Under the pieces are notes generated by a model that saw only the letters and a list, made by a program, of their open reading frames with translations, was not told the DNA's origin and ran no database searches. 35,577 bases of DNA from a virus (taxonomy: Duplodnaviria; Heunggongvirae; Uroviricota; Caudoviricetes): IMG/VR virus record IMGVR_UViG_2778261575_000001. One strand, given 5' to 3'. Positions 1,421-15,355 of the stretch are shown here, piece by piece. Each line of letters starts with the position of its first letter. The first letter of the stretch is position 1. The position numbers and the translations under genes were made by a program.

Positions 1421-1581
1421 ACAGCCCCCCGTTTATTATTTATCTCCTCAGCCAGCCGCTGTGCTTTCAGGGGATTTCGGATAACAGAAAGGCCGGTAAA
1501 TACCCAGCCTCGCTTTGTAACGGAGTAGACGAAAGTGATCGCGCCTACCCGGATATTATCGTGAGGATGCGTCATCGCCAT
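1393..1581 (-). CDS. lambda orf60a-like protein
   Basis: 62-aa ORF ([21 protein letters not shown]...) whose ATG overlaps the exo stop; resembles the remembered lambda orf60a product. Confidence 0.4.
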
Positions 1582-2252
1582 TGCTCCCCAAATACAAAAC
1601 CAATTTCAGCCAGTGCCTCGTCCATTTTTTCGATGAACTCCGGCACCATCTCGTCAAAACTCGCCATGTACTTTTCATCCCGTTCAACCACGACATAATG
1701 CAGTCCTTCACGCTTCATACGCGGGTCATAGTTGGCAAAGTACCAGGCATCTTTTCGTGTTACCCACATGCTGTACTGCACCTGGGCCATGTAAGCCGAC
1801 TTTATGGCCTCGAAACCACCGAGCCGGAACTTCATGAAATCCCGGGAGGTAAACGGGCATTTCAGCTCAAGACCATTGCCGTCACTGCATAAACCATCGG
1901 GAGAGCAGGCGGTGCGCATACTTTCGTCGCGATAGATGATCGGGGATTCAGTAACATTCACGCCGGAAGTGAATTCAAACAGGGTTCTGGCGTCGTTCTC
2001 GTACTGTTTTCCCCACGCCAGCGCCTTAGCATTAACTTCCGGAGCCACACCGGTGCAAACCTCAGCCAGCAGGGTGTGGAAGTAGGACATTTTCATGTCA
2101 GGCCACTTCTTTCCTGAGCGGGGCTTTGCTATCACGTTGTGAACTTCTGAAGCGGTGATGACGCCGAGCCGTAATTTGTGCCATGCATCATCCCCCTGTT
2201 CGACAGCTCTCACGTCGATCCCGGTACGCTGCAGGATAATGTCCGGTGTCAT
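1572..2252 (-). CDS. exo: lambda exonuclease (Red-alpha)
   Basis: 226-aa ORF essentially identical over its full length to the remembered lambda Exo sequence ([37 protein letters not shown]...[11 protein letters not shown]). Confidence 0.95.
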
Positions 2253-3034
2253 GCTGCCACCTTCTGCTCAGTGGCTTTCTGTTTCAGGAATCCAAGAGCT
2301 TTCACTGCTTCGGCCTGTGTCAGTTCTGACGATGCGCGAATGTCGCGGCGAAATATCTGGGAACAGAGCGGTAATAAGTCGTCATCCCATGTTTTATCCA
2401 GGGCGATCAGCAGAGTGTTAATCTCCTGCATGGTTTCATCGTTAACCGGAGTGATGTCGCGTTCCGGCTGACGTTCTGCAGTGTATGCGGTATTTTCGAC
2501 AATGCGCTCGGCTTCATCCTTGTCATAGATACCAGCAAATCCGAAGGCCAGACGGGCACACTGAATCATGGCTTTATGCCGTAACATCCGTTTGGGATGC
2601 GACTGCCACGGTCCGGTGATTTCTCTGCCTTCGCGGGTTTTGAATGGTTCGCGACGGCATTCATCCATCCACTCGGTAACGCAGATCGGATGATTGCGGT
2701 CTTTGCGGTAAATCCGGCATGTACAGGATTCATTGTCCTGCTCAAAGTCCATACCATCAAACTGCTGGTTTTCATTGATGATGCGGGACCAGCCATCAAC
2801 GCCCACCACCGGAACGATGCCGTTCTGCTTATCAGGGAAGGCGTAAATTTCTTTCGTCCACGGATTAAGGCCGTACTGGTTGGCAACGATCAGTAATGCG
2901 ATGAACTGCGCATCGCTGGCATCACCTTTAAATGCCGTCTGGCGAAGAGTGGTGATCAGTTCCTGTGGGTCGACAGAATCCATGCCGACACGTTCAGCCA
3001 GCTTCCCTGCCAGCGTTGCGAGTGCTGTACTCAT
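2249..3034 (-). CDS. bet: Red-beta single-strand annealing protein
   Basis: 261-aa ORF matching the remembered lambda Bet sequence ([38 protein letters not shown]...); 4-nt overlap with exo. Confidence 0.95.
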
Positions 3035-3039
3035 CCGTT

Positions 3040-3336
3040 TTATACCTCTGAATCAATATCAACCTGGTGGTGAGCAATGGTTTCAACCATGTACCGGATG
3101 TGTTCTGCCATGTGCTCCTGAAACTCAACATCGTCATCAAACGCACGGGTAATGGCTTTTTTGCTGGCCCCGTGGCGTTGCAAATGATCGATGCAGAGTG
3201 ATTCAAACAGGTGCTGTGGAAGACCTTTTTCCATGTCGTCTGCCAGTTCTGCCTCTTTCTCTTCACGGGCAATCTGCTGGTAGTGACGCGCCCAGCTCTG
3301 AGCCTCAAGACGATCCTGAATGTAATAAGCGTTCAT
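3040..3336 (-). CDS. gam: Gam (RecBCD inhibitor), short GamS-type form
   Basis: 98-aa ORF ([34 protein letters not shown]...VDIDSEV) matching the C-terminal 98 aa of lambda Gam; AGGAG RBS upstream; the upstream in-frame region is interrupted by stop codons. Confidence 0.9.
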
Positions 3337-3411
3337 GGCTGAACTCCTGAAAATGGCTGTGAAAATATCGCCCGCGAAATGCCGGGCTGATTAGGTAAAC
3401 AGGAAAGGGGA

Positions 3412-3702
3412 TTAGTGATTCAGGCCGTTGCCGCGTCCGTCGAGAAAAACTTCCACGAGCAAATCACGGGTATAAGTGCGCTCGATGCCGCGATGCAGAT
3501 AAAGCCGTCCGCGTAAATTAGCTGATGCAGTCCAGGTACCATCTTTGTGTTTGACCAGCATTCCTGGCATGACCGCACCGCGATTAACGGTCTGCGTTCC
3601 GTAATGTTGATGAACCATAAAAACTCCTGCCCGTAAGCTGGGCTGCTGAACATATAGAGACTTCTGCGCGTATTCAGGCGGTGGATGGCCGCCGGTTGTC
3701 AT
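3412..3702 (-). CDS. hypothetical early-left protein between gam and OL
   Basis: First in-frame ATG with a GAGG RBS gives 96 aa ([20 protein letters not shown]...). The track ORF extends to a TTG at 3822, adding an Arg-rich N-terminus (see findings). An alternative-frame ORF at 3420..3653 also exists. Confidence 0.3.
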
Positions 3703-3869
3703 AACTAAGCCGCCTCGTTGAAGCGACTGAGGTATGAGGTGTTGAGTTGATTTCAGCTGGTCACACCGACGTTCACGCGTCCGCTTCACCCCTCGCACTT
3801 CCCGGAGCCTGCTGAAATTCAAGCTGCGGATCTAAGCGGTCATCGCAACGGTGAATCAGGTGGTTGCCG

Positions 3870-3970
3870 TATCGTTGTGTTGTTGCGATGAATTTATTTA
3901 AAACTATAGTTGTTTTGTCGTCAACAACAAAAGTTGTTTTATTGGTTTTTTTAGATGTAAATGGTTGTAT
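3870..3970. promoter_or_regulatory. OL/pL-type operator-promoter region (GTTGTT/AACAAC inverted repeats)
   Basis: GTTGTT(3909-3914)-N8-AACAAC(3923-3928)-N4-GTTGTT(3933-3938), plus ATGGTTGT at 3961; the same half-site as the OR palindrome. Lies upstream of the leftward operon. Confidence 0.45.
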
Positions 3971-4065
3971 TTAGGATGGATTTATTTTGTGACTTGCATC
4001 GCATAGCGATAACTGAAGCGAGGTCGTGGTGGTTTTTTGAACGGTTTGTGTGATGAGGGGGAGGG

Positions 4066-4094
4066 GCAAAAGAAAACCCGGCACGGTGGCCGGG
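4066..4094 (-). terminator. intrinsic terminator downstream of the ASCH gene
   Basis: Stem CCCGGC(4077-4082)/GCCGGG(4089-4094) with a 6-nt loop; on the minus strand it is followed by TTTTCTTTT (plus 4068-4076), directly after the ASCH stop at 4099. Confidence 0.55.
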
Positions 4095-4098
4095 ATTC

Positions 4099-4476
4099 TT
4101 ACGCAGGTAGGTAAAGATATGATTGTGGTGGCTTAATATTACTACCTAGAGCAGAGATAGGAATTGGTTCTTTATATCTTTCCACTTCACCAATTTTTAT
4201 TGCGTAGGCCTTTTCTCTACCTGAATAATATGAGTCATAAAATTGCTTAGAAATACCTGCGTGTTTTTCCGTCTTTTTCCAAAGAGATTCCGGTTCGTCA
4301 CTTAGTATTGATTCAATACGGAATTGACCAACAACTTTACCTAATGGCATCGTGGCATAAATAACAACGGTGCTAATTTGCGGATTTTTGAATATACCTT
4401 TACGAAACTCGAACCGCTTTGTTCCGTTCAATATTTTTTCTGCAAACTCAGGCTTAATGGATAATAAAACTTTCAT
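4099..4476 (-). CDS. ASCH-domain (PUA-like) protein
   Basis: 125-aa ORF; N-terminus MKVLLSIKPEFAEKILNGTKRFEFRK matches the ASCH signature (K-x-LL-x-I-x-PE-[FY]...K...E-x-R); A+T-rich codon usage; start lies 23 nt inside the upstream gene. Confidence 0.65.
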   Translation of the reverse strand: MKVLLSIKPEFAEKILNGTKRFEFRKGIFKNPQISTVVIYATMPLGKVVGQFRIESILSDEPESLWKKTEKHAGISKQFYDSYYSGREKAYAIKIGEVERYKEPIPISALGSNIKPPQSYLYLPA

Positions 4477-5527
4477 TTATCTTGCCTAACTCGATGATCT
4501 TTAAGAACTGCTCATTTGTGAGTTTAAAGTGACTCCATCGGAATGCACGCGAACCATTTAGCCCCACATGATCTATTAAAATAGCACGATTGGGTCTCTT
4601 TGGCAAAGACAGATTGTATGTGAATCTTATAATGAAAGGGTATCGACGTTCTTTATAGATTTTTCTGAGTTCATCTTCAGAAAATACGCTAAAACGAATA
4701 CAATAGTCTACAAAACTATCTTCGCTTAAAAATTCAGAAATATTTTTTACGCTCTCAACTACACATAATGTACTGGCTACAGAACGATAGCGAGCTGGCC
4801 CTTTTTTGTCTCCGGTTCTATAGATGACAATGATATCTCCTCTTTTCATTCCCATCACAGAACGCATTCCACATATGTAAATTTTATGAATGCTGTTAGC
4901 ATGGGATATATCTTTGACAATATCTGGTGATTCATTTACAAGTTTTGAATCAGGGAATAGTCTAGTGTGATATTCGGGATAAATCGCCAGTAAATATTTG
5001 TTGGCTCTTGATGTCATTATTCGAGGGTAATCTAATAAAATATCACCATAAGGCTCATGCAAAGACCTCGCATATACAAACTCTTTCCCGTTATGTGTTT
5101 CTTTTTCACCATGAATGTAAAATCCGTACGTTTGGAAAAGTTTTATTAGATGGACGTGTTTGTCGAAAACAGTAACATAAATATCATCAGATTTTGATGA
5201 AAATGCATGGTCAAACGCTTTTTTTAGAAATCGTTGTCCGCGAAGGGTGCCTTTAGATTCAAATTTGAATGTTCCTATCTTTAGATGACGTCCTGGTGGG
5301 AGCGCTGGATTAATGTCATTTGCATCATCATTTTCTTTTAGATACATAAAACCTTCGATTTTATGCTTGTCATCATAGAGCACATAAGCTGATTCTCCTT
5401 CTCTGGCTTTTTTTTCTAACCAAAGAGGAAACTCTTTATAATCTTTTTTTAAAGAGTCAAAAAATGGGTCATTGTGATCAAAATCAGAGAATTTCTCATA
5501 TTTTAAAGTATCCATTAAGTTCTCCAT
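4454..5527 (-). CDS. GNAT-like acyltransferase fused to a PUA-like (ASCH-type) domain, candidate effector of an immunity-region module
   Basis: 357-aa ORF with verified ATG and TAA. N-terminal half has a GNAT-like core (...IYVTVFDKHVHLIKLFQTYGF...); C-terminal half has an ASCH-like start (KYLLAIYPEYHTRLFPDSK) followed by GDIIVIYRTG. Domain calls are by eye. Confidence 0.6.
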   Translation of the reverse strand: MENLMDTLKYEKFSDFDHNDPFFDSLKKDYKEFPLWLEKKAREGESAYVLYDDKHKIEGFMYLKENDDANDINPALPPGRHLKIGTFKFESKGTLRGQRFLKKAFDHAFSSKSDDIYVTVFDKHVHLIKLFQTYGFYIHGEKETHNGKEFVYARSLHEPYGDILLDYPRIMTSRANKYLLAIYPEYHTRLFPDSKLVNESPDIVKDISHANSIHKIYICGMRSVMGMKRGDIIVIYRTGDKKGPARYRSVASTLCVVESVKNISEFLSEDSFVDYCIRFSVFSEDELRKIYKERRYPFIIRFTYNLSLPKRPNRAILIDHVGLNGSRAFRWSHFKLTNEQFLKIIELGKINESFIIH

Positions 5528-5595
5528 TCTAAAATGAATAATTAAGTTGTTTTACTGAATGAGCACAATGCCCGGTTGATAATTTTTAATTGGTA

Positions 5596-6285
5596 CTATC
5601 CATGCTTCCTATACGTCTGCGGCATGCTCCCAATAACTTTCCCGAAGATAAACACCCGGTTCATCTCGTCTTTCTCGATTGGGTCCCACGGTGAGTAGCT
5701 CTTGTTATCAGAGATAACCAGCAGTTTATCCTTCATCATTTGCAGGCGCTTTACATGGGCTGTGTCGTCGTACAGAAACGCATAGATACCATCACCGTCG
5801 AAAGATTTAACCGTGATATCAACGAACAGCAGATCACCAGGTTCAATCGTTCCTGACATGCTGTCACCGCGTACGTTAATGATGCGGATATTTTCTGCCT
5901 TCCTGCCATCGAACATGTGACGAGCATCGTCAAACGAGTACTCAACCGAGCGTAGGACTTCTACAAACTCACGGTTGATGACACCCGGCCCGGCACTCAC
6001 TTCTATATCAAGAACGTCAATCTTAAAGTATTTGGAATGGCTGACAGTTGGTTGTATTGGTTGCACTGTACTGTCTGACATATTTCCAACGCCAGAAGAT
6101 AACCATTCTGCGCGCACACCCAAAGCGTTCGCGATCTCCACGATTTTAGTTGTTTGATTAGCTTTTCCTGTTTCGATTTTCTGAATAGCAGCTTGGCTAA
6201 CCCCGACCAAATCCCCAAGCGCCTTTTGTGTAAGGCCTCGCGCTAATCTGGCTTCTTTAAGTCTTTCTGAGAGTGTTGTTTTCAT
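5596..6285 (-). CDS. cI: cI-like prophage repressor (HTH_XRE + S24 LexA-like peptidase domain)
   Basis: 229-aa ORF with an N-terminal HTH (LTQKALGDLVGVSQAAIQKIETGK) and C-terminal S24 motifs (VRGDSMSGTIEPGDLLFVD ... VKRL); sits between the OL-like and OR-like repeat regions; ATG at 6285 has no SD, suggesting a leaderless mRNA. Confidence 0.85.
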   Translation of the reverse strand: MKTTLSERLKEARLARGLTQKALGDLVGVSQAAIQKIETGKANQTTKIVEIANALGVRAEWLSSGVGNMSDSTVQPIQPTVSHSKYFKIDVLDIEVSAGPGVINREFVEVLRSVEYSFDDARHMFDGRKAENIRIINVRGDSMSGTIEPGDLLFVDITVKSFDGDGIYAFLYDDTAHVKRLQMMKDKLLVISDNKSYSPWDPIEKDEMNRVFIFGKVIGSMPQTYRKHG

Positions 6286-6389
6286 AGTTCAAATGTACAA
6301 CCAAGGTTTTATTCCATCAAACGAAAATGGTTGTTGACTAAAAACAACCATAGTTTTAATCTTGATTCAAATTAACCACGGAGGTTGTT
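6286..6389. promoter_or_regulatory. OR region with divergent pRM/pR candidates
   Basis: Perfect 9-bp inverted repeat ATGGTTGTT-N7-AACAACCAT at 6327-6351. Candidate pR: TTGACT (6333-6338), 16-bp spacer, TTTAAT (6355-6360). Candidate leftward pRM (coordinates on plus strand): TTGATG (6315-6320), 17-bp spacer, TACATT (6292-6297), start at the cI ATG. Confidence 0.5.
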
Positions 6390-6620
6390 ATGAACCCAGC
6401 TATTAAAACAGCGATCAATATCGTTGGTTCACAAAAGAAACTGGGCGCTGCTTGCGAAGTTTCACAGCAGGCCGTCTATAAGTGGCTTCACAACAAAGCA
6501 AAGGTATCCCCTGAACATGTCGGCAGCATTGTTACGGCTACTGGTGGAGTAGTGAAGGCACACCAGATTCGCCCGGATCTTCCGAAGTTGTTTCCACACA
6601 CCGAAAAGAACGCAGCTTAA
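6390..6620 (+). CDS. cro: Cro-like repressor (YdaS-type HTH)
   Basis: 76-aa ORF, GGAGG RBS, first gene rightward of OR; resembles YdaS/Cro-type small HTH proteins (..GSQKKLGAACEVSQQAVYKW..). Confidence 0.7.
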   Translation: MNPAIKTAINIVGSQKKLGAACEVSQQAVYKWLHNKAKVSPEHVGSIVTATGGVVKAHQIRPDLPKLFPHTEKNAA

Positions 6621-6632
6621 ATTTCCATTTCA

Positions 6633-6645
6633 CGCTCTTTAACAA
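6633..6645 (+). promoter_or_regulatory. boxA-like element (nutR candidate)
   Basis: CGCTCTTTAACAA, 13 nt after the cro stop, closely matches the boxA consensus (lambda CGCTCTTA; rrn GCTCTTTAACAA); no boxB hairpin found. Confidence 0.35.
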
Positions 6646-6689
6646 TAAGCAATCAACTTAACAGTCAATTCAAACTAAAGGAGTCAATT

Positions 6690-7229
6690 ATGCAACCACT
6701 TACATACCAACAGACTAGCGGATTTAGCCCGACTGCGGTGATAAATCGTTCTCAAACAAAACAGGTGCCAGGCCACGAAAAAATCCGTGATGCCGTCCGC
6801 GCCTGGTCGGCTGAAGATAATCAGGATGTCGTTGCCACACTCATTGTGAATGAGTATCGGGAGCAGGGCGGCGGCACCATCGATTTCCCTGATGATGTCA
6901 GCCGTGCACGCCAGAAGCTGTTCCGCTTCCTCGATAACAAATTCGATTCTGAAAAATACCGAAATAACGTGCGTGAACTGACCCCGGCAATCCTGGCGGT
7001 ACTACCGCTGGAATATCGCGGTTACCTGGTTGAGCAGGATAGCTTCATGGCTAGGTTGGCTGAAATGGAAAAGGAACTCAGTGAGGCAAAACAGGCTGTC
7101 ATTCTCAACGCACCACGCCACCAGAAACTGAAGGAAATTAGTGAAGGTATTGTGTCGATGTTTCGTGTGGACCCAGATCTGGCTGGTCCATTGATGGCGA
7201 TGGTTACTACCATGCTGGGGGCGATATGA
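6690..7229 (+). CDS. YdaT-family regulator (CII-position protein)
   Basis: 179-aa ORF between cro and O with an AAGGAG RBS; shares the remembered YdaT-like pattern (EY.EQGGG ... PAILAVLPLEYR). Confidence 0.5.
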   Translation: MQPLTYQQTSGFSPTAVINRSQTKQVPGHEKIRDAVRAWSAEDNQDVVATLIVNEYREQGGGTIDFPDDVSRARQKLFRFLDNKFDSEKYRNNVRELTPAILAVLPLEYRGYLVEQDSFMARLAEMEKELSEAKQAVILNAPRHQKLKEISEGIVSMFRVDPDLAGPLMAMVTTMLGAI

Positions 7230-8245
7230 CAGGTTCAGAAATGGCGAAAGCCGGTCTGCTGGAACAGAACCGACTTTCAGGTGCAAATCGTAACGCACTC
7301 ATTGCGGAAGGAATTATGGCAAACACTGCTGAGATATTCAATTTTCCAGTGCCGGATGAGGCACAAAAGGAGCGGCGCGTGGCAGATCTCGATGATGGTT
7401 ATACGCGCATTGCAAATGAGTTGCTGGAAGCTGTGATGCTGGCCGGATTAACACAGCACCAGCTTCTGGTCTTCCTGGCTGTCATGCGCAAAACATATGG
7501 CTTTAATAAAAAACTGGATTGGGTGAGCAACGAGCAACTTTCCGAATTGACCGGGATATTGCCGCACAAGTGTTCTGCTGCAAAAAGCGTTCTGGTAAAG
7601 CGTGGGATTCTTATTCAGAGCGGGCGGAATATCGGCATTAATAATGTGGTCAGTGAATGGTCAACATTACCCGAATCAGGTAAGAAAAATAAAGTTTACC
7701 TGAAAGAGGCAAATTTACCTGAATCAGGTAAGAAAAGTTTACCCAAATCAGGTAAAGGCGTTTACCCGAATCAGGTAAACACAAAAGACAAACTAACAAA
7801 AGACAATATAAAACCTTTTTCGTCCGAGAATTCTGGCGAATCCTCTGACCAACCAGAAAACGATCTTCCTGTGGAGAAACCAGATGCTGCAATTCAGAGC
7901 GGCAGCAGGTGGGGGACAGCAGAAGACCTGACCGCCGCAGAGTGGATGTTTGACATGGTGAAGACCATCGCGCCATCAGCCAGAAAACCGAATTTTGCAG
8001 GGTGGGCTAACGATATCCGCCTGATGCGTGAACGTGACGGACGTAACCACCGCGACATGTGCGTGCTGTTCCGCTGGGCATGCCAGGACAACTTCTGGTC
8101 CGGTAACGTGCTAAGTCCGGCCAAACTCCGCGACAAGTGGACCCAACTCGAAATCAACCGTAACAAGCAACAGGCCGGCGTGACAGCCGGAAAATCAAAA
8201 CTCGACCTGACGAACACTGACTGGATTTATGGGGTGGATTTATGA
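7226..8245 (+). CDS. O: replication initiator O
   Basis: 339-aa ORF; N-terminal region (VADLDDGYTRIANELLEA...MRKTYGFNKK...NEQLSELTGI) matches lambda O; contains the iteron array; ATGA overlap with the upstream gene. Confidence 0.9.
   Translation: MTGSEMAKAGLLEQNRLSGANRNALIAEGIMANTAEIFNFPVPDEAQKERRVADLDDGYTRIANELLEAVMLAGLTQHQLLVFLAVMRKTYGFNKKLDWVSNEQLSELTGILPHKCSAAKSVLVKRGILIQSGRNIGINNVVSEWSTLPESGKKNKVYLKEANLPESGKKSLPKSGKGVYPNQVNTKDKLTKDNIKPFSSENSGESSDQPENDLPVEKPDAAIQSGSRWGTAEDLTAAEWMFDMVKTIAPSARKPNFAGWANDIRLMRERDGRNHRDMCVLFRWACQDNFWSGNVLSPAKLRDKWTQLEINRNKQQAGVTAGKSKLDLTNTDWIYGVDL
7667..7779. repeat. ori-lambda-type iterons within O
   Basis: Four ~18-bp repeats TTACC(C/T)(G/A)AATCAGGTAA(G/A) at 7667-7684, 7715-7732, 7739-7756 and 7762-7779, a degenerate copy at ~7696-7709, and an A+T-rich tract at ~7780-7815. 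Confidence 0.75.
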
Positions 8246-8943
8246 AAAACATCGCCGCACAGATGGTTAACTTTGACCGTGAGCAGATGCGCCGGATCGC
8301 CAACAACATGCCGGAACAGTACGACGAAAAGCCGCAGGTACAGCAGGTAGCGCAGATCATCAACGGTGTGTTCAGCCAGTTACTGGCAACTTTCCCGGCG
8401 AGTCTGGCTAACCGGGACCAGAACGAACTGAACGAAATCCGCCGCCAGTGGGTTCTGGCTTTCCGGGAAAACGGGATCACCACAATGGAACAGGTTAACG
8501 CAGGAATGCGCGTAGCCCGTCGGCAGAATCGACCATTCCTGCCATCACCCGGGCAGTTTGTTGCCTGGTGTCGGGAAGAAGCATCCGTTACCGCCGGGCT
8601 GCCAAACGCCAGCGAGCTGGTTGATATGGTTTACGAGTATTGCCGGAAGCGTGGCCTTTATCCGGATGCAGAGTCTTATCCATGGAAATCAAACGCGCAT
8701 TACTGGTTGGTTACCAACCTGTATCAGAACATGCGAGCCAATGCGCTGACTGACGCGGAATTACGGCGCAAGGCTGCCGATGAACTGACCTGTATGACAG
8801 CGCGAATTAACCGTGGTGAGGCTATACCTGAACCAGTAAAACAAATTCCTGTCATGGGCGGTAGACCTCTAAATCGTGCACAGGCTCTGGCGAAGATCGC
8901 AGAAATCAAAGCTAAGTTTGGGCTGAAAGGAGCAAGAGTATGA
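8242..8943 (+). CDS. P: replication protein P (DnaB helicase loader)
   Basis: 233-aa ORF nearly identical to remembered lambda P (MKNIAAQMVNFDREQMRRIANNMPEQYDEKPQ...). Confidence 0.95.
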   Translation: MKNIAAQMVNFDREQMRRIANNMPEQYDEKPQVQQVAQIINGVFSQLLATFPASLANRDQNELNEIRRQWVLAFRENGITTMEQVNAGMRVARRQNRPFLPSPGQFVAWCREEASVTAGLPNASELVDMVYEYCRKRGLYPDAESYPWKSNAHYWLVTNLYQNMRANALTDAELRRKAADELTCMTARINRGEAIPEPVKQIPVMGGRPLNRAQALAKIAEIKAKFGLKGARV

Positions 8944-9242
8944 CGGGCAAAGAGGCAATTATTCATTACCTGGGGACTCATAAGAACTTCTGTGCGCAGG
9001 ACGTTGCCGCGGTAACAGGCGCAACCGTAACCAGCATAAATCAGGCTGCGGCTAAAATGGCGCGGGCAGGAATCCTGGTCGTTGATGGTAAGGTCTGGCG
9101 AACGGTGTATTATCGGTTCGCTACCAGAGAAGAACGGGAAGGAAAGGTGAGCGCGAATTTGATTTTTAAGGAGTGTCGCCAGAGTGCCGCGATGAAACGG
9201 GTATTGAGGGTATATAAAAGAACATCAATGGGTACACAATGA
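8940..9242 (+). CDS. ren: Ren
   Basis: 100-aa ORF matching lambda Ren (MTGKEAIIHYLGTH...VWRTVYYRFATREEREGK...). Confidence 0.85.
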   Translation: MTGKEAIIHYLGTHKNFCAQDVAAVTGATVTSINQAAAKMARAGILVVDGKVWRTVYYRFATREEREGKVSANLIFKECRQSAAMKRVLRVYKRTSMGTQ

Positions 9243-9309
9243 TGAAACAGGTGAGTTGAGTTCAAACTGTAGTACAATTCTCTCCAGTTTGAACAGGAAA
9301 GAATATGCT

Positions 9310-9642
9310 ATGAACCCTTATATTTATCTTGGTGGTGCAATACTTGCAGAGGTCATTGGTACAACCTTAATGAAGTTTTCAGAAGGTTTTACACGGTTAT
9401 GGCCATCTGTTGGTACAATTATTTGTTATTGTGCATCATTCTGGTTATTAGCTCAGACGCTGGCTTATATACCTACAGGGATTGCTTATGCTATCTGGTC
9501 AGGAGTCGGTATTGTCCTGATTAGCTTACTATCATGGGGATTTTTCGGCCAACGGTTGGACCTGCCAGCCATTATAGGCATGATGTTGATTTGTGCCGGT
9601 GTGTTGGTTATTAATTTATTGTCACGAAGCACACCACATTAA
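9310..9642 (+). CDS. emrE: small multidrug resistance efflux transporter EmrE
   Basis: 110 aa from the ATG at 9310 (MNPYIYLGGAILAEVIGTTLMKFSEGFTRLWPSVGTII...) matches E. coli EmrE, a known DLP12 prophage gene; RBS AGGAAAG upstream. Confidence 0.95.
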   Translation: MNPYIYLGGAILAEVIGTTLMKFSEGFTRLWPSVGTIICYCASFWLLAQTLAYIPTGIAYAIWSGVGIVLISLLSWGFFGQRLDLPAIIGMMLICAGVLVINLLSRSTPH

Positions 9643-9897
9643 AAATAATTTATTTTTAAACGACTAAAATATTGAGGTTCGTATATTTGTATGGGCCTCG
9701 TTTTATGCTTTTTGTTAATGTCTTTAGTTTTTATTCATTCTTTTGATCTTTCAAGATTATGGTGTAAGAAAATTGCAATACGATTATTGTTGTATATTCA
9801 AGATAATGTGACCTTAATTGTCTTTTTAAATAAAAATTAAACAAAAATCATATCTCACCACTAAGGTTTATAAAAGCATACTTTAGCAGGTGTCACC

Positions 9898-11424
9898 ATG
9901 AAAAAAGCCATAGCATATATGCGATTTTCATCACCAGGTCAGATGTCTGGTGATTCATTAAACCGCCAGAGAAGGCTTATTACTGAATGGCTAAAGGTAA
10001 ATAGTGATTATTACCTTGATACCGTAACGTATGAAGATTTGGGGTTAAGCGCATTCAATGGAAAGCATGCACAATCAGGAGCTTTTTCGGAATTTTTAGA
10101 TGCTATAGAACATGGTTACATATTGCCAGGGACTACATTGTTAGTTGAAAGTCTGGACAGACTTTCAAGAGAAAAAGTCGGTGAAGCGATTGAGCGTCTG
10201 AAATTGATTTTGAATCACGGTATTGATGTTATAACTCTTTGCGATAATACAGTCTATAATATAGACTCATTGAATGAGCCATATTCATTAATAAAAGCCA
10301 TACTTATAGCACAAAGGGCAAATGAAGAAAGCGAGATAAAGTCAAGTCGGGTTAAATTATCATGGAAGAAAAAACGGCAGGATGCACTGGAATCAGGCAC
10401 GATTATGACGGCGTCTTGTCCGAGATGGCTCTCATTGGATGACAAAAGAACAGCTTTTATTCCACACCCCGACAGGGTGAAAACGATTGAGCTAATTTTT
10501 AAACTCAGGATGGAAAGGCGATCATTGAATGCAATAGCTAAGTATTTAAATGATCATGCTGTAAAAAATTTTTCAGGAAAAGAAAGTGCATGGGGGCCTT
10601 CTGTAATTGAAAAATTATTAGCGAATAAAGCTCTGATAGGTATATGCGTACCTTCATATCGTGCAAGAGGGAAAGGGATAAGTGAAATCGCTGGCTATTA
10701 TCCCAGAGTCATATCAGATGATTTGTTTTACGCTGTACAGGAAATTCGGTTGGCACCTTTTGGTATTAGCAATAGTAGCAAGAATCCTATGCTAATAAAT
10801 CTACTTCGAACAGTTATGAAGTGTGAGGCTTGTGGTAATACCATGATTGTTCATGCGGTATCTGGACGTTTGCATGGCTATTATGTTTGTCCGATGAGAA
10901 GATTACATCGATGTGACAGGCCATCAATAAAAAGAGATTTGGTTGATTATAATATCATTAATGAATTGCTTTTTAATTGTAGCAAAATTCAACCAGTTGA
11001 AAACAAGAAAGATGCTAATGAAACTTTAGAGTTAAAAATTATTGAGCTTCAGATGAAAATTAATAATTTAATCGTTGCATTGTCTGTCGCGCCTGAAGTT
11101 ACCGCTATAGCAGAGAAAATAAGACTATTAGATAAGGAATTACGAAGGGCTTCGGTATCATTAAAAACTTTGAAGAGTAAAGGGGTGAGTTCACTTGGTG
11201 ATTTTCATGCTATTGATTTAACCAGTAAAAATGGGCGAGAGCTATGTCGTACACTTGCCTATAAAATATTCGAAAAAATTATAATTAATACAGATAATAA
11301 AACCTGTGATATCTATTTTATGAATGGCATTGTTTTTAAACACTATCCTTTAATGAAAGTAATATCCGCCCAGCAGGCGATAAGTACTCTTAAATATATG
11401 GTTGATGGTGAGATTTATTTTTGA
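9898..11424 (+). CDS. ybcK: large serine recombinase (YbcK-like)
   Basis: 508-aa ORF with a resolvase-type N-terminal catalytic domain (AIAYMRFSSPGQ...SLNRQ); size and neighbourhood (after emrE) match DLP12 ybcK; A+T-rich. Confidence 0.8.
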   Translation: MKKAIAYMRFSSPGQMSGDSLNRQRRLITEWLKVNSDYYLDTVTYEDLGLSAFNGKHAQSGAFSEFLDAIEHGYILPGTTLLVESLDRLSREKVGEAIERLKLILNHGIDVITLCDNTVYNIDSLNEPYSLIKAILIAQRANEESEIKSSRVKLSWKKKRQDALESGTIMTASCPRWLSLDDKRTAFIPHPDRVKTIELIFKLRMERRSLNAIAKYLNDHAVKNFSGKESAWGPSVIEKLLANKALIGICVPSYRARGKGISEIAGYYPRVISDDLFYAVQEIRLAPFGISNSSKNPMLINLLRTVMKCEACGNTMIVHAVSGRLHGYYVCPMRRLHRCDRPSIKRDLVDYNIINELLFNCSKIQPVENKKDANETLELKIIELQMKINNLIVALSVAPEVTAIAEKIRLLDKELRRASVSLKTLKSKGVSSLGDFHAIDLTSKNGRELCRTLAYKIFEKIIINTDNKTCDIYFMNGIVFKHYPLMKVISAQQAISTLKYMVDGEIYF

Positions 11425-11748
11425 GTAATAATCACTTTTTCAACCGTGCTATGGTATGAAAGTAAAGTAACTAATATGATATTAACTATCTTGAACGAAG
11501 CGCCCTGAGCTATAGTTTTACTATAGGCACTGTCACTGGATGTTGGCATTCTTGCTCTAGTAGCTCAACAATACCCAATCACAAAACAATTCACTGATAA
11601 CAAACTTTGTGCACGTGCTTGGTTATGGCGAACAGGTGATGTTAACCTCTTGCCAGAATGCCACTCCACTTCATTAAGTATCTGAGCACCGAGAGGCTGG
11701 TCACGCCCCCATTAAAAATAATTTCTTTTGAATCGAGTGAAATAGGTT

Positions 11749-11775
11749 AGCCCGCATAAGTGCGGGCTGCTTTTT
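11749..11775. terminator. hairpin terminator between the ybcK block and the esterase gene, possibly bidirectional
   Basis: Stem AGCCCGCA(11749-11756)/TGCGGGCT(11761-11768), loop TAAG, then TTTTT (11771-11775) on the plus strand; overlaps the stop of the minus-strand esterase gene. Confidence 0.5.
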
Positions 11776-12817
11776 ACAGGTCAGCGTTTGTTTTTTGTTG
11801 TTGGGTAGCGGTTTTTATGGGGGTTCCCAGGTTTTTAGTAAACCACTCAACAACTCTGTTTATAATAATTGGCTGATACCATGTATTATCGCCATGCTCG
11901 GCCCCTTCTACCAGCACGTACTCAGCGTTATCACCGTTCTTCTTCAACATCCTGAATAGTTTGGCGCTTTGCTCAGGTGAAACCAGAGTGTCTTTGCTAC
12001 CATGCATAATAAGAAATGGGGGTTTTACTCCTTTCATATGTCCGATTGGACTGGCGTTTAGCGCTTTTTCTTTTGACGCTGTGATGGGGGCTCCCGCAAA
12101 ATTTCTGAATGCAGGGCCATTGATCATTAAGGCTTCGGTTACGGCAGGAGAGCGATGAACCTCCTGCACTGATTCAGGGAACCCCTCGCCAATATTCAAC
12201 AAGTCAGAAATCCCATAAAGTGTGGCAACTGCCTGAACATCTGAGGATTGCTGAAGAAAGTCACCTTTATCAAAGGTTTTGTCACCATTTGTAGTTCCCA
12301 TCATCTGGGCAAGCCATCCACCGGCAGAGTCACCCAGAACTCCGATTCTTTGAGGATCAATCCCATAATTGCTGGCATGCTCTCTCAGGTAACGTATTGC
12401 AGCTTTTCCATCCTCAACTGGTGCTGGAAATGTATCAGGAATTGTTCTGTATTCTACAGCGGCCACAACAAAACCAGCTTCTGCCAGAGCCATTCTCATT
12501 TCAATAAATTTGTCATGTTCAGAAGACATGAATCCGCCGCCGGGATAATAAATAATGGCTGGTTTTAAATCATTTGTTCGCGGGACAAGAACTGACATGT
12601 GAAGCTGTCTGACAGAACGAGTTCCTTTTATCTGGGAATAAACAACATCACCAATGAGATCGACCTGGTTTCTGGTCGGTGAAACACTAATGATATCTGC
12701 ACCCGGGGTGTAACCAGGAAGATTAGTCTGGACAGGTGTTGCACAACTCCCGACCGACATGGCCATTGACATACCATACAATAGTGTTGCAGATGATAAT
12801 ATCTTGTTAATTTTCAT
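11774..12817 (-). CDS. secreted or lipoprotein alpha/beta-hydrolase (family IV esterase/lipase-like)
   Basis: 347-aa ORF with an N-terminal signal peptide and possible lipobox (MSVGSC), an HGGG-type oxyanion motif (YYPGGGF), a GDSAGG nucleophile elbow and a C-terminal His (GAEHGD). Confidence 0.7.
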   Translation of the reverse strand: MKINKILSSATLLYGMSMAMSVGSCATPVQTNLPGYTPGADIISVSPTRNQVDLIGDVVYSQIKGTRSVRQLHMSVLVPRTNDLKPAIIYYPGGGFMSSEHDKFIEMRMALAEAGFVVAAVEYRTIPDTFPAPVEDGKAAIRYLREHASNYGIDPQRIGVLGDSAGGWLAQMMGTTNGDKTFDKGDFLQQSSDVQAVATLYGISDLLNIGEGFPESVQEVHRSPAVTEALMINGPAFRNFAGAPITASKEKALNASPIGHMKGVKPPFLIMHGSKDTLVSPEQSAKLFRMLKKNGDNAEYVLVEGAEHGDNTWYQPIIINRVVEWFTKNLGTPIKTATQQQKTNADL

Positions 12818-13205
12818 GTTTTACATGCCTTGACTTATCGGATGAAATTCTCTTACTGAATTTAACGGCAGTTTAATAGCCGTACAACTCGTGGTAGCCA
12901 GGGAAATATCCCAGTCGTGGTTAAGGTTGTACTTGACGGCTATTATTTCAACAATGCTTAAAGTGAGAGCTTAAGGTTATGCGTATGTTTTACAGTCCGA
13001 GTAGATTCTGACCAATAGCTTCTTTGTATAATTCTGTCAGAAATAAATCTTGGCTTGCATGAAGTTTGAGACCTTATCTTGTTTGATTATGAATAATCAA
13101 TTCGCCATAATTGTATCACCGGAGCCTGAACAACTCCGGTGACTTCTGCGCTAAACGGGGACGTTTATGCGCACACACAATCCAAACTCTCTTCTCCCTT
13201 CACAG

Positions 13206-13264: not shown

Positions 13265-13720
13265 GTGAACCTACCACAAGATGGCATCAAACTGCATCGC
13301 GGTAACTTCATCGCTATCGGCCAGCAGATCCAGCCTTATCTGGAGAACGGAAAATGCTTTCGCATGGTGCTTAAACCGTGGCGTGAGAAACGCAGTCTTT
13401 CCCAGAATGCACTCAGCCACATGTGGTACAGCGAAATCAGTGAATACCTCATCAGCAGGGGGAAATCGTTCGCTACCGCAGCATGGGTAAAAGATGCTCT
13501 CAAACACACATACCTCGGTTATGAAACCAAGGACCTGGTTGATGTCGTAACCGGCGAAATCACTACTATCCAGTCGTTACGCCATACCTCCGATCTCGAT
13601 ACCGGAGAGATGTATGTCTTCCTGTGTAAGGTTGAAGCCTGGGCGGTGAATATTGGCTGCCACCTGACTATTCCGCAGAGCTGCGAGTTCCAGCTGCTGC
13701 GCGACAAGCAGGAGGCGTAA
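13265..13720 (+). CDS. ninB: NinB-family protein (YbcN-like)
   Basis: 151-aa ORF with GTG start after a GGAGG SD; matches the remembered DLP12 YbcN sequence ([15 protein letters not shown]...). Confidence 0.75.
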
Positions 13721-13890
13721 TGGCTACACCGCTTATTCGTGTCATGAACGGACACATCTACAGAGTACCAAATCGTCGTAAGCGTAAGCCTGAGCTGAAA
13801 CCATCCGAAATACCAACACTGCTCGGATATACCGCCAGCCTGGTTGATAAAAAATGGTTGCGACTGGCAGCAAGGAGGAATCATGGCTGA
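13720..13890 (+). CDS. ninE: NinE
   Basis: 56-aa ORF below the track's size cutoff, translated by hand: [56 protein letters not shown]; TAATG overlap with ninB. Confidence 0.7.
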   Translation: MATPLIRVMNGHIYRVPNRRKRKPELKPSEIPTLLGYTASLVDKKWLRLAARRNHG

Positions 13891-14173
13891 CTTGAGAAAA
13901 GCAGCGCGTGGTCGGGAATGCCAGGTAAGAATCCCTGGCGTATGTAATGGCAATCCTGAAACGTCAGTACTGGCACATATCCGGCTGGCTGGATTGTGCG
14001 GTACCGGTATCAAACCGCCAGACCTGATTGCCACCATTGCATGTTCTGCCTGCCACGACGAAATCGACCGTCGCACGCATTTTGTTGACGCTGGATATGC
14101 AAAAGAATGTGCGCTGGAAGGTATGGCGAGAACACAGGTTATCTGGCTGAAAGAGGGGGTAATTAAGGCGTGA
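13883..14173 (+). CDS. ybcO: YbcO-like protein (DUF1364, Cys-rich)
   Basis: 96 aa from the ATG at 13883 ([24 protein letters not shown]...), overlapping the ninE end; DLP12 ybcO position and size. Confidence 0.7.
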
Positions 14174-14532
14174 ATACTTACTGCATCACACTACCCTGGC
14201 CGCCGAGCAATAATCGCTATTACCGCCATAATCGCGGACGCACGCATATCAGCGCAGAGGGGCAGGCATACCGCGATAATGTCGCCCGAATCATTAAAAA
14301 CGCAATGCTGGATATCGGCCTGGCTATTCCTGTGAAAATCAGCATTGAGTGCCACATGCCGGATCGCCGTCGCCGTGACCTTGATAATCTGCAAAAGGCC
14401 GCTTTTGACGCACTCACCAAAGCAGGTTTCTGGCTGGATGATGCTCAGGTCGTTGATTACCGCGTTGTGAAGATGCCCGTTACCAAAGGTGGGAAGCTGG
14501 AGCTGACTATCACTGAACTGGGAGATGAATGA
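14170..14532 (+). CDS. rusA: Holliday-junction resolvase RusA
   Basis: 120-aa ORF matching E. coli RusA ([36 protein letters not shown]...). Confidence 0.95.
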
Positions 14533-14669
14533 TGTTTGAGTCTTATATGGCAGAGCGTCTTCGCCGCCGCTGGGTGCGCCTGCGCTTATATCGTTTTCCT
14601 GGTTCTGTTTTGACCGATTACCGGATACTGAAGAATTACGCCAAAACACTGAAAGGAGCTGCCGCATGA
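14529..14669 (+). CDS. ylcG: YlcG-like small protein
   Basis: 46-aa ORF translated by hand ([46 protein letters not shown]), overlapping the rusA stop and the next gene's ATG. Confidence 0.45.
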
Positions 14670-15355
14670 ATACCCAATATTTACAGTATGTCCGCGAGCA
14701 ACTCATTGTGGCTACCGCTGATTTGAGCGGAGCAACGAAAGGACAGCTTGAAGCCTGGCTGGAGCATGCACAATTTGATACTGGTACATACAAACGAAAG
14801 AAGCCGCGCATTCTGGATGAGGTAACTGGCAGGATGATTACGCTGGATAATCCGCCGATTTCCGGTAAGCAGTCGTACGCAAAAGGTTCATCCATTGCAC
14901 TGGTCAGCCAGGTTGAGTTCTCAACCTCGTCATGGCGCCGCGCGGTTCTGTCTCTCGAAGAACATCAGAAAGCGTGGTTGCTGTGGAGTTACAGCGAAAG
15001 TGTTCGCTGGGAACATCAGGTCACCATAACGCAGTGGGCATGGAGCGAGTTTAAGACTCTGTTGGGTACCAGGAAAATTGCAGGTAAAACACTGGAACGT
15101 TTGAAGAAGTTGATCTGGCTGGCGGCACAGGATGTGAAGAACGAGCTGGCAGGGCGTAAGACCTATGAATACCAGGAGCTGGCATCACTGGTGGGAGTGA
15201 CATCAAAAAACTGGTCTGAGACATTTACTGAACGCTGGGTTGCAATGAAGCACATTTTTCTACAGCTTGATAGCCAAGCTTTATTGCTTTTAACGAAAAC
15301 ACGTTCAAAACAAAAGACCATATTTTCACAGCAAGATATTGCAAAACTGGATTAA
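14666..15355 (+). CDS. putative late-gene regulator (Q-position protein)
   Basis: 229-aa ORF immediately upstream of a terminator-containing leader and the lysis cassette; assigned by position only. Confidence 0.45.
   Translation: MNTQYLQYVREQLIVATADLSGATKGQLEAWLEHAQFDTGTYKRKKPRILDEVTGRMITLDNPPISGKQSYAKGSSIALVSQVEFSTSSWRRAVLSLEEHQKAWLLWSYSESVRWEHQVTITQWAWSEFKTLLGTRKIAGKTLERLKKLIWLAAQDVKNELAGRKTYEYQELASLVGVTSKNWSETFTERWVAMKHIFLQLDSQALLLLTKTRSKQKTIFSQQDIAKLD

What the first reader, a model, noticed from the sequence alone, without database searches (positions are those of the whole stretch)
6621..6689. rrn-type boxA immediately downstream of cro without an obvious boxB
Seen: CGCTCTTTAACAA at 6633-6645, 13 nt after the cro stop, matches the boxA consensus closely (rrn boxA GCTCTTTAACAA; lambda nutR boxA CGCTCTTA). 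The following 40 nt contain a direct repeat AGTCAATT (6658-6665 and 6679-6686) but no GAAAA-loop hairpin of boxB type. Established: boxA recruits NusB/NusE, and boxB recruits N in lambda. Inference: a nutR-like site whose N-binding element is divergent or absent, consistent with the unclear N gene on the left side.
Basis: partly seen in the sequence, partly recalled or inferred. Interest (0 to 1): 0.4.

Follow-up and report, generated by a model that had tools for sequence, protein, structure and literature searches.

The report
Orphan boxA after cro, no N
A perfect copy of the short RNA signal (boxA) that lambda-like phages and ribosomal RNA operons use to load host Nus proteins sits just after the cro gene of this E. 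coli prophage. The phage has lost the partner hairpin (boxB), the N protein and the left-hand site. So it is a stranded piece of a known anti-termination site, probably still able to bind host factors, and not a new kind of system.

Summary
CGCTCTTTAACAA lies at 6633-6645 on the + strand, 12 nt after the cro stop codon. It is the only copy in the window, and 0 of 100 shuffles contained one.

No boxB-type hairpin follows the boxA. The window has no N or Nun homologue and no nutL. The first gene downstream of the putative pL is kil.

In Cro homologues from other Enterobacterales, a boxA occupies the same position in 5 of 11 loci, each followed by a hairpin. Four of these five also carry a matching nutL and an N-like gene. 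Other relatives carry an HK022-type putR or a hairpin spanning the stop codon instead.

The boxA is therefore homologous to a nutR boxA but is orphaned here. It forms the right-hand end of a roughly 640-bp immunity cassette. Sister phages (4A7 type) are 97-98% identical on both sides, lack the boxA and are viable.

Most likely it still binds NusB/NusE without N, as in rrn, suhB and CRISPR leaders. The effect would be modest and dispensable, either protection from Rho or damping of the cII-like ydaT gene. An inert relic is nearly as likely. This is a new instance of a known element, of moderate-to-low interest.

The parts
6633..6645 (+). Orphan boxA, CGCUCUUUAACAA in the transcript from the putative pR. 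It is rrn-type and fits the GYTCTTTAANA consensus.
   Evidence: Exact match. 0 of 100 shuffles contain it. Consensus match. Positionally homologous to the nutR boxA of Cro-family relatives.
6390..6620 (+). cro gene (YdaS/Cro-type helix-turn-helix protein, 76 aa). The boxA travels with it.
   Evidence: Pfam YdaS_toxin 1.7e-16 and P22_Cro. Annotated as Cro in PhiR47_2.
6621..6689 (+). The 69-nt cro-ydaT intergenic region. It is unstructured and G-poor (27 A, 21 T, 15 C, 6 G) and holds the boxA, two AGTCAATT copies (6663-6670, 6682-6689) and the ydaT ribosome-binding site AAGGAG (6677-6682).
   Evidence: Sequence. Fold z = +0.67. Composition and C/G above 2 across 6561-6720. Repeat coordinates.
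6690..7229 (+). ydaT-type cII analogue, the first gene downstream of the boxA. The mosaic junction with the immunity cassette lies exactly at its ATG.
   Evidence: Pfam YdaT_toxin 9.5e-30. Homology with 4A7-type phages starts at 6689/6690.
6049..6688 (.). Immunity cassette that is heterologous to sister phage 4A7. It contains the cI N-terminal domain, OR with the putative pR, cro and the boxA-bearing intergenic region.
   Evidence: blastn of 4A7 against the window gives 97.4% identity up to 6048 and 97.7% from 6689.
6327..6360 (+). Operator palindrome and putative pR (TTGACT at 6334-6339), the presumed origin of the transcript that carries the boxA.
   Evidence: Inverted repeat with the OL region, 95% complementary between 3898-3916 and 6341-6359. 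Sequence. The promoter is assigned by analogy. It did not pass the scan threshold.
3700..3945 (-). OL with the putative pL (about 3896-3945) and the roughly 196-nt conserved leader (3700-3895). It contains no boxA, no boxB and no N gene. This is context showing that nutL and N are absent.
   Evidence: Sequence. No boxA on this strand. The leader is present in 141 of 144 loci that carry the orphan boxA. It is conserved in 4A7.
3412..3618 (-). kil, the first gene of the putative pL operon, in the position where N sits in lambda.
   Evidence: phrog_294 Kil, 1.3e-37. The extended 136-aa ORF has no N-like match.

Best explanation
The motif is a true boxA inherited by descent from an N-type nutR. 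It is carried at the right-hand end of this phage's cI-cro immunity cassette. The lineage has no boxB, no nutL and no N, so it cannot act as an N-utilisation site. Because the sequence is rrn-grade, single-stranded and on the presumed pR transcript, it most likely still recruits NusB-NusE, and through them NusA, NusG and SuhB, to RNA polymerase leaving cro. That would be N-independent, as in rrn leaders, the suhB leader and CRISPR-array leaders. My preferred consequence is modest protection from Rho at the only untranslated, rut-like gap of the operon (cro-ydaT) and further downstream. It would not give read-through of the intrinsic terminators before Q. The effect is dispensable.

**Shown:**
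- the sequence, its position and its strand
- absence of boxB, N and nutL
- homology to nutR boxAs in relatives
- cassette boundaries
- existence of sister phages without a boxA

**Inferred:**
- Nus factor binding
- any effect on Rho or on translation
For: - **Real and non-random.** Exact 13-mer, 0 of 100 shuffles. It matches GYTCTTTAANA, the consensus derived from functional rrn and suhB boxAs (PMC5725501).
- **Expected affinity.** Published NusB:NusE Kd is 5-8 nM for rrnG BoxA against about 80-90 nM for lambda nut BoxA (PMC2800207).
- **Unstructured context.** Fold z = +0.67. C/G is 2.1-2.4 over 6561-6720.
- **Homology.** 5 of 11 Cro-homologue loci from other genera have a boxA at the same place followed by a hairpin. 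Four of them carry a matching nutL and an N-like phrog_271 ORF.
- **Missing partners here.** No N or Nun homologue (PhiR47_2 annotation). No nutL. No boxB.
- **Precedent.** Stand-alone boxAs act without N in rrn, suhB and CRISPR arrays (PMC5725501, PMC7665894; review PMC12360218).
- **What lies downstream.** No intrinsic terminator was predicted between the boxA and 9673. Two strong ones (9673-9700, 11748-11769) lie before Q.
Against: - **No evidence of selection.** The whole module is nearly invariant in 1,515 E. coli genomes and about 150 IMG/VR loci. The few variants hit the boxA about as often as the rest of the intergenic region, including one locus with CGCTCTTTGACAA.
- **Only one lineage.** The boxA-without-boxB arrangement was seen only here. 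No divergent relative keeps a boxA without boxB.
- **Dispensable.** 4A7-type phages are 97-98% identical on both sides, have no boxA anywhere in the early operons and are viable.
- **Little obvious need.** The downstream genes ydaT, O, P and ren are tightly packed and translated, so protection from Rho may matter little.
- **Opposite precedent.** Every characterised boxA placed just upstream of a protein-coding gene (suhB; a ParE-like gene in Citrobacter koseri) represses that gene and promotes Rho termination (PMC5725501). The direction of the effect could therefore be the reverse of what I propose.
Confidence: 0.4

Rival explanations
1. Inert relic. The boxA is simply what was left when a crossover or deletion between boxA and boxB joined an N-type cro module to an N-less backbone. 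It may bind Nus factors in passing but has no measurable effect on phage gene expression or fitness.
For: - The mosaic junction lies 44 nt downstream, at the ydaT ATG.
- The position after cro is a swap point that holds four different elements in the Cro family: boxA+boxB, putR, a stop-codon hairpin and the orphan boxA.
- Sister phages lack the boxA and are viable.
- Variants show no excess conservation of the boxA over its flanks.
- The orphan form occurs in one lineage only.
Against: - The motif is a perfect 13 of 13, better than lambda's own boxA. An rrn-grade boxA on a nascent RNA is expected to be bound whether or not it is selected for (PMC2800207, PMC5725501).
- The lineage is very successful, present in 28% of complete E. 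coli genomes, and has not degraded the motif. The spread appears recent, however, so this argument is weak.
Confidence: 0.3
2. suhB-type repression. Nus factors bound at the boxA loop the RNA to RNA polymerase, hinder 30S binding at the ydaT ribosome-binding site 31 nt downstream, lower synthesis of the cII-like YdaT and allow Rho to terminate inside ydaT. This would tune the lysis-lysogeny choice and O/P expression to Nus factor availability.
For: - The boxA ends 31 nt from the AAGGAG ribosome-binding site.
- In suhB, repression persists with up to 100 nt between the boxA and the ribosome-binding site, and the boxA overlaps a rut-like pyrimidine-rich tract (PMC5725501).
- Here 6561-6720 is C-rich and G-poor.
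- The motif starts 56 nt upstream of the ATG, just outside the 50-nt window of that paper's genome search, so that search would have missed it.
Against: - Polarity on the translationally coupled O and P genes would harm lytic growth.
- ydaT has a strong ribosome-binding site with ideal spacing.
- In lambda, the N-modified complex tethered at nutR does not prevent cII translation (general knowledge).
- There are no data for this phage.
Confidence: 0.13
3. DNA-level element. The intergenic DNA is kept because it holds the leftward PRE-like promoter and the binding sites of the YdaT (cII-like) activator. The boxA match, whose TTAACA overlaps a repeated TTAACA(A/G)T motif, is secondary to that role.
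For: - In CP-933P, YdaT activates a promoter between ydaS and ydaT and footprints about 95 bp around the end of ydaS (PMC8630535, PMC9986795).
- The intergenic region holds the direct repeats TTAACAAT/TTAACAGT and 2 x AATTGACT, the latter with TTGACT -35-like hexamers on the minus strand.
- One variant has a third TTAACAG copy.
Against: - The full 13-nt identity to boxA, including the GCTCTT half that lies outside the repeats, and its positional homology to nutR boxAs are not explained by a promoter role.
- The CP-933P operator consensus matches here only with 3 mismatches, no better than chance (20 matches against 21.6 expected).
- The window's YdaT is too divergent from CP-933P YdaT to transfer the specificity (no PDB sequence hit).
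- No promoter-like site was called on the minus strand here.
Confidence: 0.08
4. Working nutR with an unrecognised partner. A divergent N-like protein and a non-canonical RNA element replace N and boxB.
For: - There is an arginine-rich in-frame extension (RGVKRTRERRCDQ) upstream of kil in the 136-aa ORF 3412-3822.
Against: - No N-like match for that ORF. Only the Kil part matches.
- No stable hairpin within 45 nt of the boxA.
- No boxA or boxB in the pL leader.
- tblastn with five N or Nun proteins gives only noise.
- Relatives that use N show all the parts clearly.
Confidence: 0.03

Closest known systems
Lambdoid nutR (boxA-spacer-boxB, N-dependent), as in lambda, P22 and phage 21
   Same: Same position just after cro on the pR transcript, and the same boxA. 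It is homologous by descent to the nutR boxAs of Cro-family relatives.
   Different: There is no boxB, no N, no nutL and no ARM protein. It cannot recruit N and so cannot give the N-type processive read-through of intrinsic terminators.
rrn leader and spacer boxA (rrnTAC: NusA, NusB, NusE, NusG, SuhB, S4)
   Same: The boxA sequence is of rrn grade (GCUCUUUAACAA) and is expected to load NusB/NusE without a phage factor. boxA alone is the key element there (PMC12360218; general knowledge).
   Different: The downstream RNA here is translated mRNA, not untranslated rRNA. There is no boxB or boxC context and no evidence of Nus loading.
suhB 5'UTR boxA (Baniulyte et al. 2017, PMC5725501)
   Same: A stand-alone boxA a short distance upstream of the ribosome-binding site of a protein-coding gene, embedded in a pyrimidine-rich, G-poor tract. 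It fits the same consensus, GYTCTTTAANA.
   Different: It lies inside an operon, after a translated gene, rather than at the 5' end of a transcript. It is 31 nt rather than 6 nt from the ribosome-binding site. The direction of the effect is unknown.
CRISPR-array leader boxA (Stringer et al. 2020, PMC7665894)
   Same: An N-independent boxA outside rRNA, used to block Rho on horizontally acquired or defence-related transcripts.
   Different: That element protects a long untranslated RNA and is conserved across species. This one precedes translated genes and is confined to one lineage.
HK022 putR
   Same: It occupies the same slot after cro in an N-less lambdoid phage. A Cro-family relative, Salmonella phage UPF_BP1, carries a near-identical copy of HK022 putR there.
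   Different: put is a roughly 70-nt structured RNA with two stem-loops that acts directly on RNA polymerase. The window's region is unstructured and shows no similarity to it.

Membership tests
Lambdoid N-utilisation site (nutR) | boxA on the pR transcript just downstream of cro | tested here: met
   CGCTCTTTAACAA at 6633-6645 (+), 12 nt after the cro stop.
Lambdoid N-utilisation site (nutR) | boxB stem-loop (about 5 bp, GNRA-like loop) within about 5-30 nt downstream of the boxA | tested here: not met
   The best hairpin is 4 bp with one G-C pair. Fold z = +0.67. Relatives show clear hairpins.
Lambdoid N-utilisation site (nutR) | Cognate N protein with an arginine-rich motif, encoded just downstream of pL | tested here: not met
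   The first pL gene is kil. tblastn with N and Nun queries gives only noise. No N is annotated in PhiR47_2.
Lambdoid N-utilisation site (nutR) | Paired nutL (boxA+boxB) in the pL operon | tested here: not met
   No boxA-like motif on the minus strand of the pL leader, and none in the left arms of the 144 related loci with enough left flank to test.
Lambdoid N-utilisation site (nutR) | N- and Nus-dependent read-through of downstream terminators | not testable with these tools
   Needs reporter assays.
Stand-alone BoxA / Nus-factor element (rrn, suhB, CRISPR type) | Match to the functional consensus GYTCTTTAANA | tested here: met
   GCTCTTTAACA at 6634-6644. Consensus from PMC5725501.
Stand-alone BoxA / Nus-factor element (rrn, suhB, CRISPR type) | Lies on the sense strand of a transcript and is single-stranded | tested here: met
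   It lies on the + strand, about 270 nt downstream of the putative pR, and is unpaired in the centroid fold. The promoter is assigned by analogy only.
Stand-alone BoxA / Nus-factor element (rrn, suhB, CRISPR type) | Binding of NusB/NusE and recruitment of SuhB | not testable with these tools
   Needs ChIP or in vitro binding.
Stand-alone BoxA / Nus-factor element (rrn, suhB, CRISPR type) | boxA-dependent change in Rho termination or in translation | not testable with these tools
   Needs lacZ fusions in nusB, nusE and rho mutant hosts.
Stand-alone BoxA / Nus-factor element (rrn, suhB, CRISPR type) | Conservation of the boxA-only arrangement across diverged relatives | tested here: inconclusive
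   It was found only in one near-clonal E. coli lineage. Diverged Cro relatives have either boxA+boxB or no boxA.
put-type antiterminator RNA (HK022, HK639) | A roughly 70-nt RNA with two stem-loops downstream of cro | tested here: not met
   The region is unstructured and shows no similarity to the HK022 or HK639 regions.

The most novel reading that the evidence does not exclude
A widespread group of N-less lambdoid coliphages uses a bare rrn-type boxA to plug its early right operon directly into the host Nus/SuhB machinery. This would either protect the operon from Rho or set the level of the cII-like YdaT protein according to how much free Nus complex the cell has, which tracks growth rate and rRNA synthesis. 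Host physiology would then feed into the lysis-lysogeny decision without any phage antiterminator protein.
Probability: 0.12. Interest if true: 0.6.

Novelty: new member of a known kind. Interest (0 to 1): 0.3.

Why it matters
If the orphan boxA is active, it would be the first phage example of N-independent, boxA-only Nus regulation. It would extend the short list of non-ribosomal boxA targets (suhB, CRISPR arrays, a ParE-like gene) to a prophage family present in about 28% of complete E. coli genomes.

Nature has already supplied the control. 4A7-type phages are 97-98% identical outside a roughly 640-bp immunity cassette and lack the motif, so the question is cheap to test.

If the boxA is inert, it still gives a clean snapshot of how antitermination modules are exchanged at the junction just after cro. 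Four different solutions occur in one Cro family. It is also a caution against annotating every boxA after cro as a nut site.

Tried and rejected
- **Rfam.** Gathering thresholds on the whole window gave 0 hits. E-value mode on 3300-7300 gave only chance miRNA and snoRNA matches.
- **put-like RNA.** The pL leader and the cro-ydaT intergenic region show no meaningful similarity to the HK022 or HK639 regions. A 13-nt HK022 match to '...TTTCACGCTCTT' lies inside HK022 cI on the other strand and is coincidental. The pL leader folds no better than shuffles (z = -1.16).
- **Repeat shared between the operons.** An inverted-repeat search found only the operators.
- **CP-933P YdaT operator (TTGATT-N6-AATCAA).** It overlaps the boxA only with 3 mismatches, at chance level. 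The window's YdaT has no PDB sequence hit, so the specificity cannot be transferred.
- **Census of 120 IMG/VR stretches containing CGCTCTTTAACAAC.** Most sites that look like genuine boxAs are followed by GC-rich hairpins. The set is noisy, with many coding-region matches, and I did not classify it further.
- **Supplement of Baniulyte et al.** It has no ydaT or relevant phage entries.
- **Literature search for GevT/GevA.** It returned only unrelated papers. King et al. 2011 on HK639 is not in the searchable library.
- **Covariation analysis of the pL leader** was not attempted, because all copies are 96-99% identical.

Full report
**1. Setting**

The window is a lambdoid E. coli prophage of the DLP12 / 'Lambda_4A7' (Bievrevirus-like) type.

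Gene order:

| Feature | Coordinates |
|---|---|
| exo | 1572-2252 (-) |
| bet | 2249-3034 (-) |
| gam | 3040-3336 (-) |
| kil | 3412-3618 (-) |
| putative pL/OL | about 3896-3945 |
| ASCH protein and a 357-aa protein ('GevA/GevT' in PhiR47_2) | 4099-5527 (-) |
| S24-type cI | 5596-6285 (-) |
| OR / putative pR | 6327-6360 |
| cro (YdaS type) | 6390-6620 |
| ydaT-type cII analogue | 6690-7229 |
| O | 7226-8245 |
| P | 8242-8943 |
| ren | 8940-9242 |
| emrE | 9256-9642 |
| ybcK recombinase | 9898-11424 |
| esterase | 11774-12817 (-) |
| ninB to rusA | 13265-14532 |
| Q | 14666-15355 |

- Window 6286-6760, spanning the cI-cro intergenic region, cro and the first 71 nt of ydaT, is 100% identical in the isolated phages PhiR47_2 and IdasGreatGrand.
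- The 161 nt around the finding occur in 1,515 of 5,426 complete E. coli genomes.

**2. The observation**

- CGCTCTTTAACAA is at 6633-6645 on the + strand, 12 nt after the cro stop codon.
- No dinucleotide-preserving shuffle of the window contains it.
- It also fits GYTCTTTAANA. That consensus was derived from functional rrn and suhB boxAs (PMC5725501).
Its count in the window is not above chance.
- The second copy overlaps the spacer between the ydaT ribosome-binding site and start codon. It is disrupted in some relatives: a T deletion in 7 IMG/VR loci, and AATCAATT in strain MRY15-131.
- No hairpin follows the boxA. The 161 nt around it fold worse than shuffles (z = +0.67). The best local stem is 4 bp with one G-C pair.

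**3. What it is: homology**

I fetched 11 loci from other genera that encode Cro homologues of 64-87% amino-acid identity.

- Five of them (Erwinia, Xenorhabdus, Buttiauxella, Photorhabdus, Arsenophonus) have a boxA 5-45 nt after the cro stop. GCTCTTT-A-CA is invariant in the alignment.
- Every one of the five is followed by a hairpin.
- Four carry a second boxA plus a hairpin of the same design on the opposite strand, which is a nutL.
- Downstream of each of those nutL sites is an arginine-rich ORF that matches phrog_271, 'anti-termination protein N-like'.

The window's motif is therefore positionally homologous to nutR boxAs of classical N systems.

**4. What is missing here**

- The putative pL leader (3700-3895, minus strand) has no boxA and no boxB.
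- The first gene is kil (phrog_294). Its 136-aa extended ORF has no N-like match.
- tblastn with four N-like proteins, lambda N and HK022 Nun finds only noise, with a best E-value of 0.08.
- The complete genome of PhiR47_2 has no N annotated.
- Of the 144 related IMG/VR loci carrying this boxA that had enough left flank to test, 141 have the same N-less leader. None has a nutL-type site.

Three of the four sequence-level defining features of a nut site were tested and not met. It should not be filed as a nutR.

**5. Modular context**

Phage 4A7 aligns to the window at 97.4% identity up to 6048 and at 97.7% from 6689 onward.

- The heterologous block is 6049-6688, plus roughly 100 bp at OL. It contains the cI DNA-binding domain, OR, cro and the intergenic region.
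- The boxA is thus the last element of the immunity cassette. The junction lies exactly at the ydaT ATG.
- 4A7-type phages have only 30 nt between cro and ydaT, no boxA anywhere in their early operons, and a hairpin across the cro stop codon.
- HK639, Klebsiella phage ST101-KPC2phi6.1 and three genomic loci have the same hairpin type.
- Salmonella phage UPF_BP1 carries a sequence near-identical to HK022 putR after its Cro homologue.

The slot after cro is therefore a swap point. It holds four alternative elements in one Cro family.

**6. How it most likely works**

*Established background:*
- NusB-NusE binds rrn-type BoxA with a Kd of 5-8 nM, against about 80-90 nM for lambda nut BoxA (PMC2800207).
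- Stand-alone boxAs recruit the Nus/SuhB complex without N in rrn operons, the suhB leader and CRISPR arrays.
- The outcome can be inhibition or promotion of Rho termination, depending on context (PMC5725501; PMC7665894; PMC12360218).

*Shown here:*
- The motif is of rrn grade.
- It is on the sense strand, about 270 nt from the putative pR.
- It is unstructured.
- It is embedded in a 160-nt C-rich, G-poor stretch (C/G of 2.1-2.4 across 6561-6720). This recalls the rut sites around lambda nutR/tR1 and the suhB boxA.

*Inference:*
- The nascent RNA binds NusB/NusE and tethers a Nus complex to RNA polymerase.
- My preferred outcome is modest Rho resistance at the cro-ydaT gap and beyond.
- The alternative is suhB-like damping of ydaT translation, since the ribosome-binding site is 31 nt downstream and repression in suhB tolerates up to 100 nt.
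- Neither outcome would carry polymerase through the two strong intrinsic terminators before Q, at 9673-9700 and 11748-11769.
- A promoter-like site at 13083-13111 may feed ninB-Q independently.

**7. Why confidence is limited**

- The lineage is nearly clonal, so conservation tells little.
- Four variant events were seen in the 69-nt intergenic region across about 150 loci. One of them is inside the boxA (CGCTCTTTGACAA in L084), which is about the share expected without constraint.
- The boxA-only form was found in no diverged relative.
- Viable sister phages lack it.
- An inert relic is therefore almost as likely as a working element.
- A DNA-level role for the intergenic region remains possible. 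By analogy with CP-933P (PMC8630535, PMC9986795) it could hold a PRE-like promoter and YdaT sites. That would not explain the GCTCTT half of the motif or its homology to nutR boxAs.

**8. Verdict**

| Claim | Probability |
|---|---|
| Genuine boxA by descent from a nutR | about 0.85 |
| Not an N-utilisation site | about 0.95 |
| Still a physiologically meaningful Nus-loading site | about 0.4-0.5, direction unresolved |

This is a new instance of a known element in a new context, an N-less lambdoid phage. It is not a new system.

Noticed in passing
window 13083-13100 (promoter-like site 13083-13111): A perfect palindrome, TTGATTATGAATAATCAA, identical to the TTGATT-N6-AATCAA operator consensus reported for CP-933P YdaT. 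It overlaps the -35 of a promoter-like site upstream of ninB, and a hairpin follows at about 13116-13142. It may be a regulated internal promoter that feeds ninB-Q and bypasses the terminators at 9673-9700 and 11748-11769.
   Followed up: partly
window about 3950-5595 (between the cI stop and putative pL); loci L018-L097: The slot downstream of cI (the rexAB position) is hypervariable. Among 70 IMG/VR loci with the same cI and cro, at least 15 different sequences abut cI. In the window it holds an ASCH-domain gene and a 357-aa gene, annotated GevA/GevT in PhiR47_2. It looks like a defence or moron hot-spot.
   Followed up: partly
window 3700-3895 (-): A roughly 196-nt pL leader is conserved at 96-99% across two immunity types, begins with a 9-bp hairpin (CAUCGCAAC...GUUGCGAUG) and precedes kil directly. 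With no N in these phages it is a candidate cis-acting antiterminator. It shows no similarity to HK022 or HK639 put, and its fold is not better than shuffles (z = -1.16). An arginine-rich in-frame extension (RGVKRTRERRCDQ) lies upstream of kil.
   Followed up: partly
L002 3455-3480; L016 4074-4095; L005-L007; L298 about 3823-3842: Cro-family modules without a boxA share a hairpin, GCCGCYTAAnn(G)GCGGC, that spans the cro stop codon. It recurs across E. coli, Klebsiella, Kosakonia and Enterobacter phages. Its function is unknown.
   Followed up: no
L299 about 2735-2810 (Salmonella phage UPF_BP1): Downstream of its Cro homologue, this P22-like (Lederbergvirus) phage carries a sequence near-identical to HK022 putR. 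put-type antitermination therefore occurs outside the HK022 group.
   Followed up: no
L003 3601-3612 (E. coli MRY15-131), equivalent to an insertion after window 6656: A 12-nt insertion, TTAACAGACTGA, creates three tandem-like TTAACAG motifs between the boxA and the ydaT ribosome-binding site. The boxA itself is unchanged. About 45 E. coli genomes fall in the 90-95% identity band that would fit this variant.
   Followed up: no
window 9256-12817: The morons emrE, ybcK (a serine recombinase) and a convergent esterase sit between ren and the nin region. Strong intrinsic terminators bracket them (9673-9700 and the bidirectional 11748-11769). This interrupts the pR-to-Q path of an N-less phage.
   Followed up: no
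L008 3226-3260 and minus strand about 1169 (Serratia sp. Ag1): After its cro, this relative has a decayed boxA-like CGCTTAATAACA (3 mismatches) with no hairpin, while a perfect CGCTCTTTAACAA lies on the left arm. It may be a second, more eroded example of an orphaned boxA.
   Followed up: no
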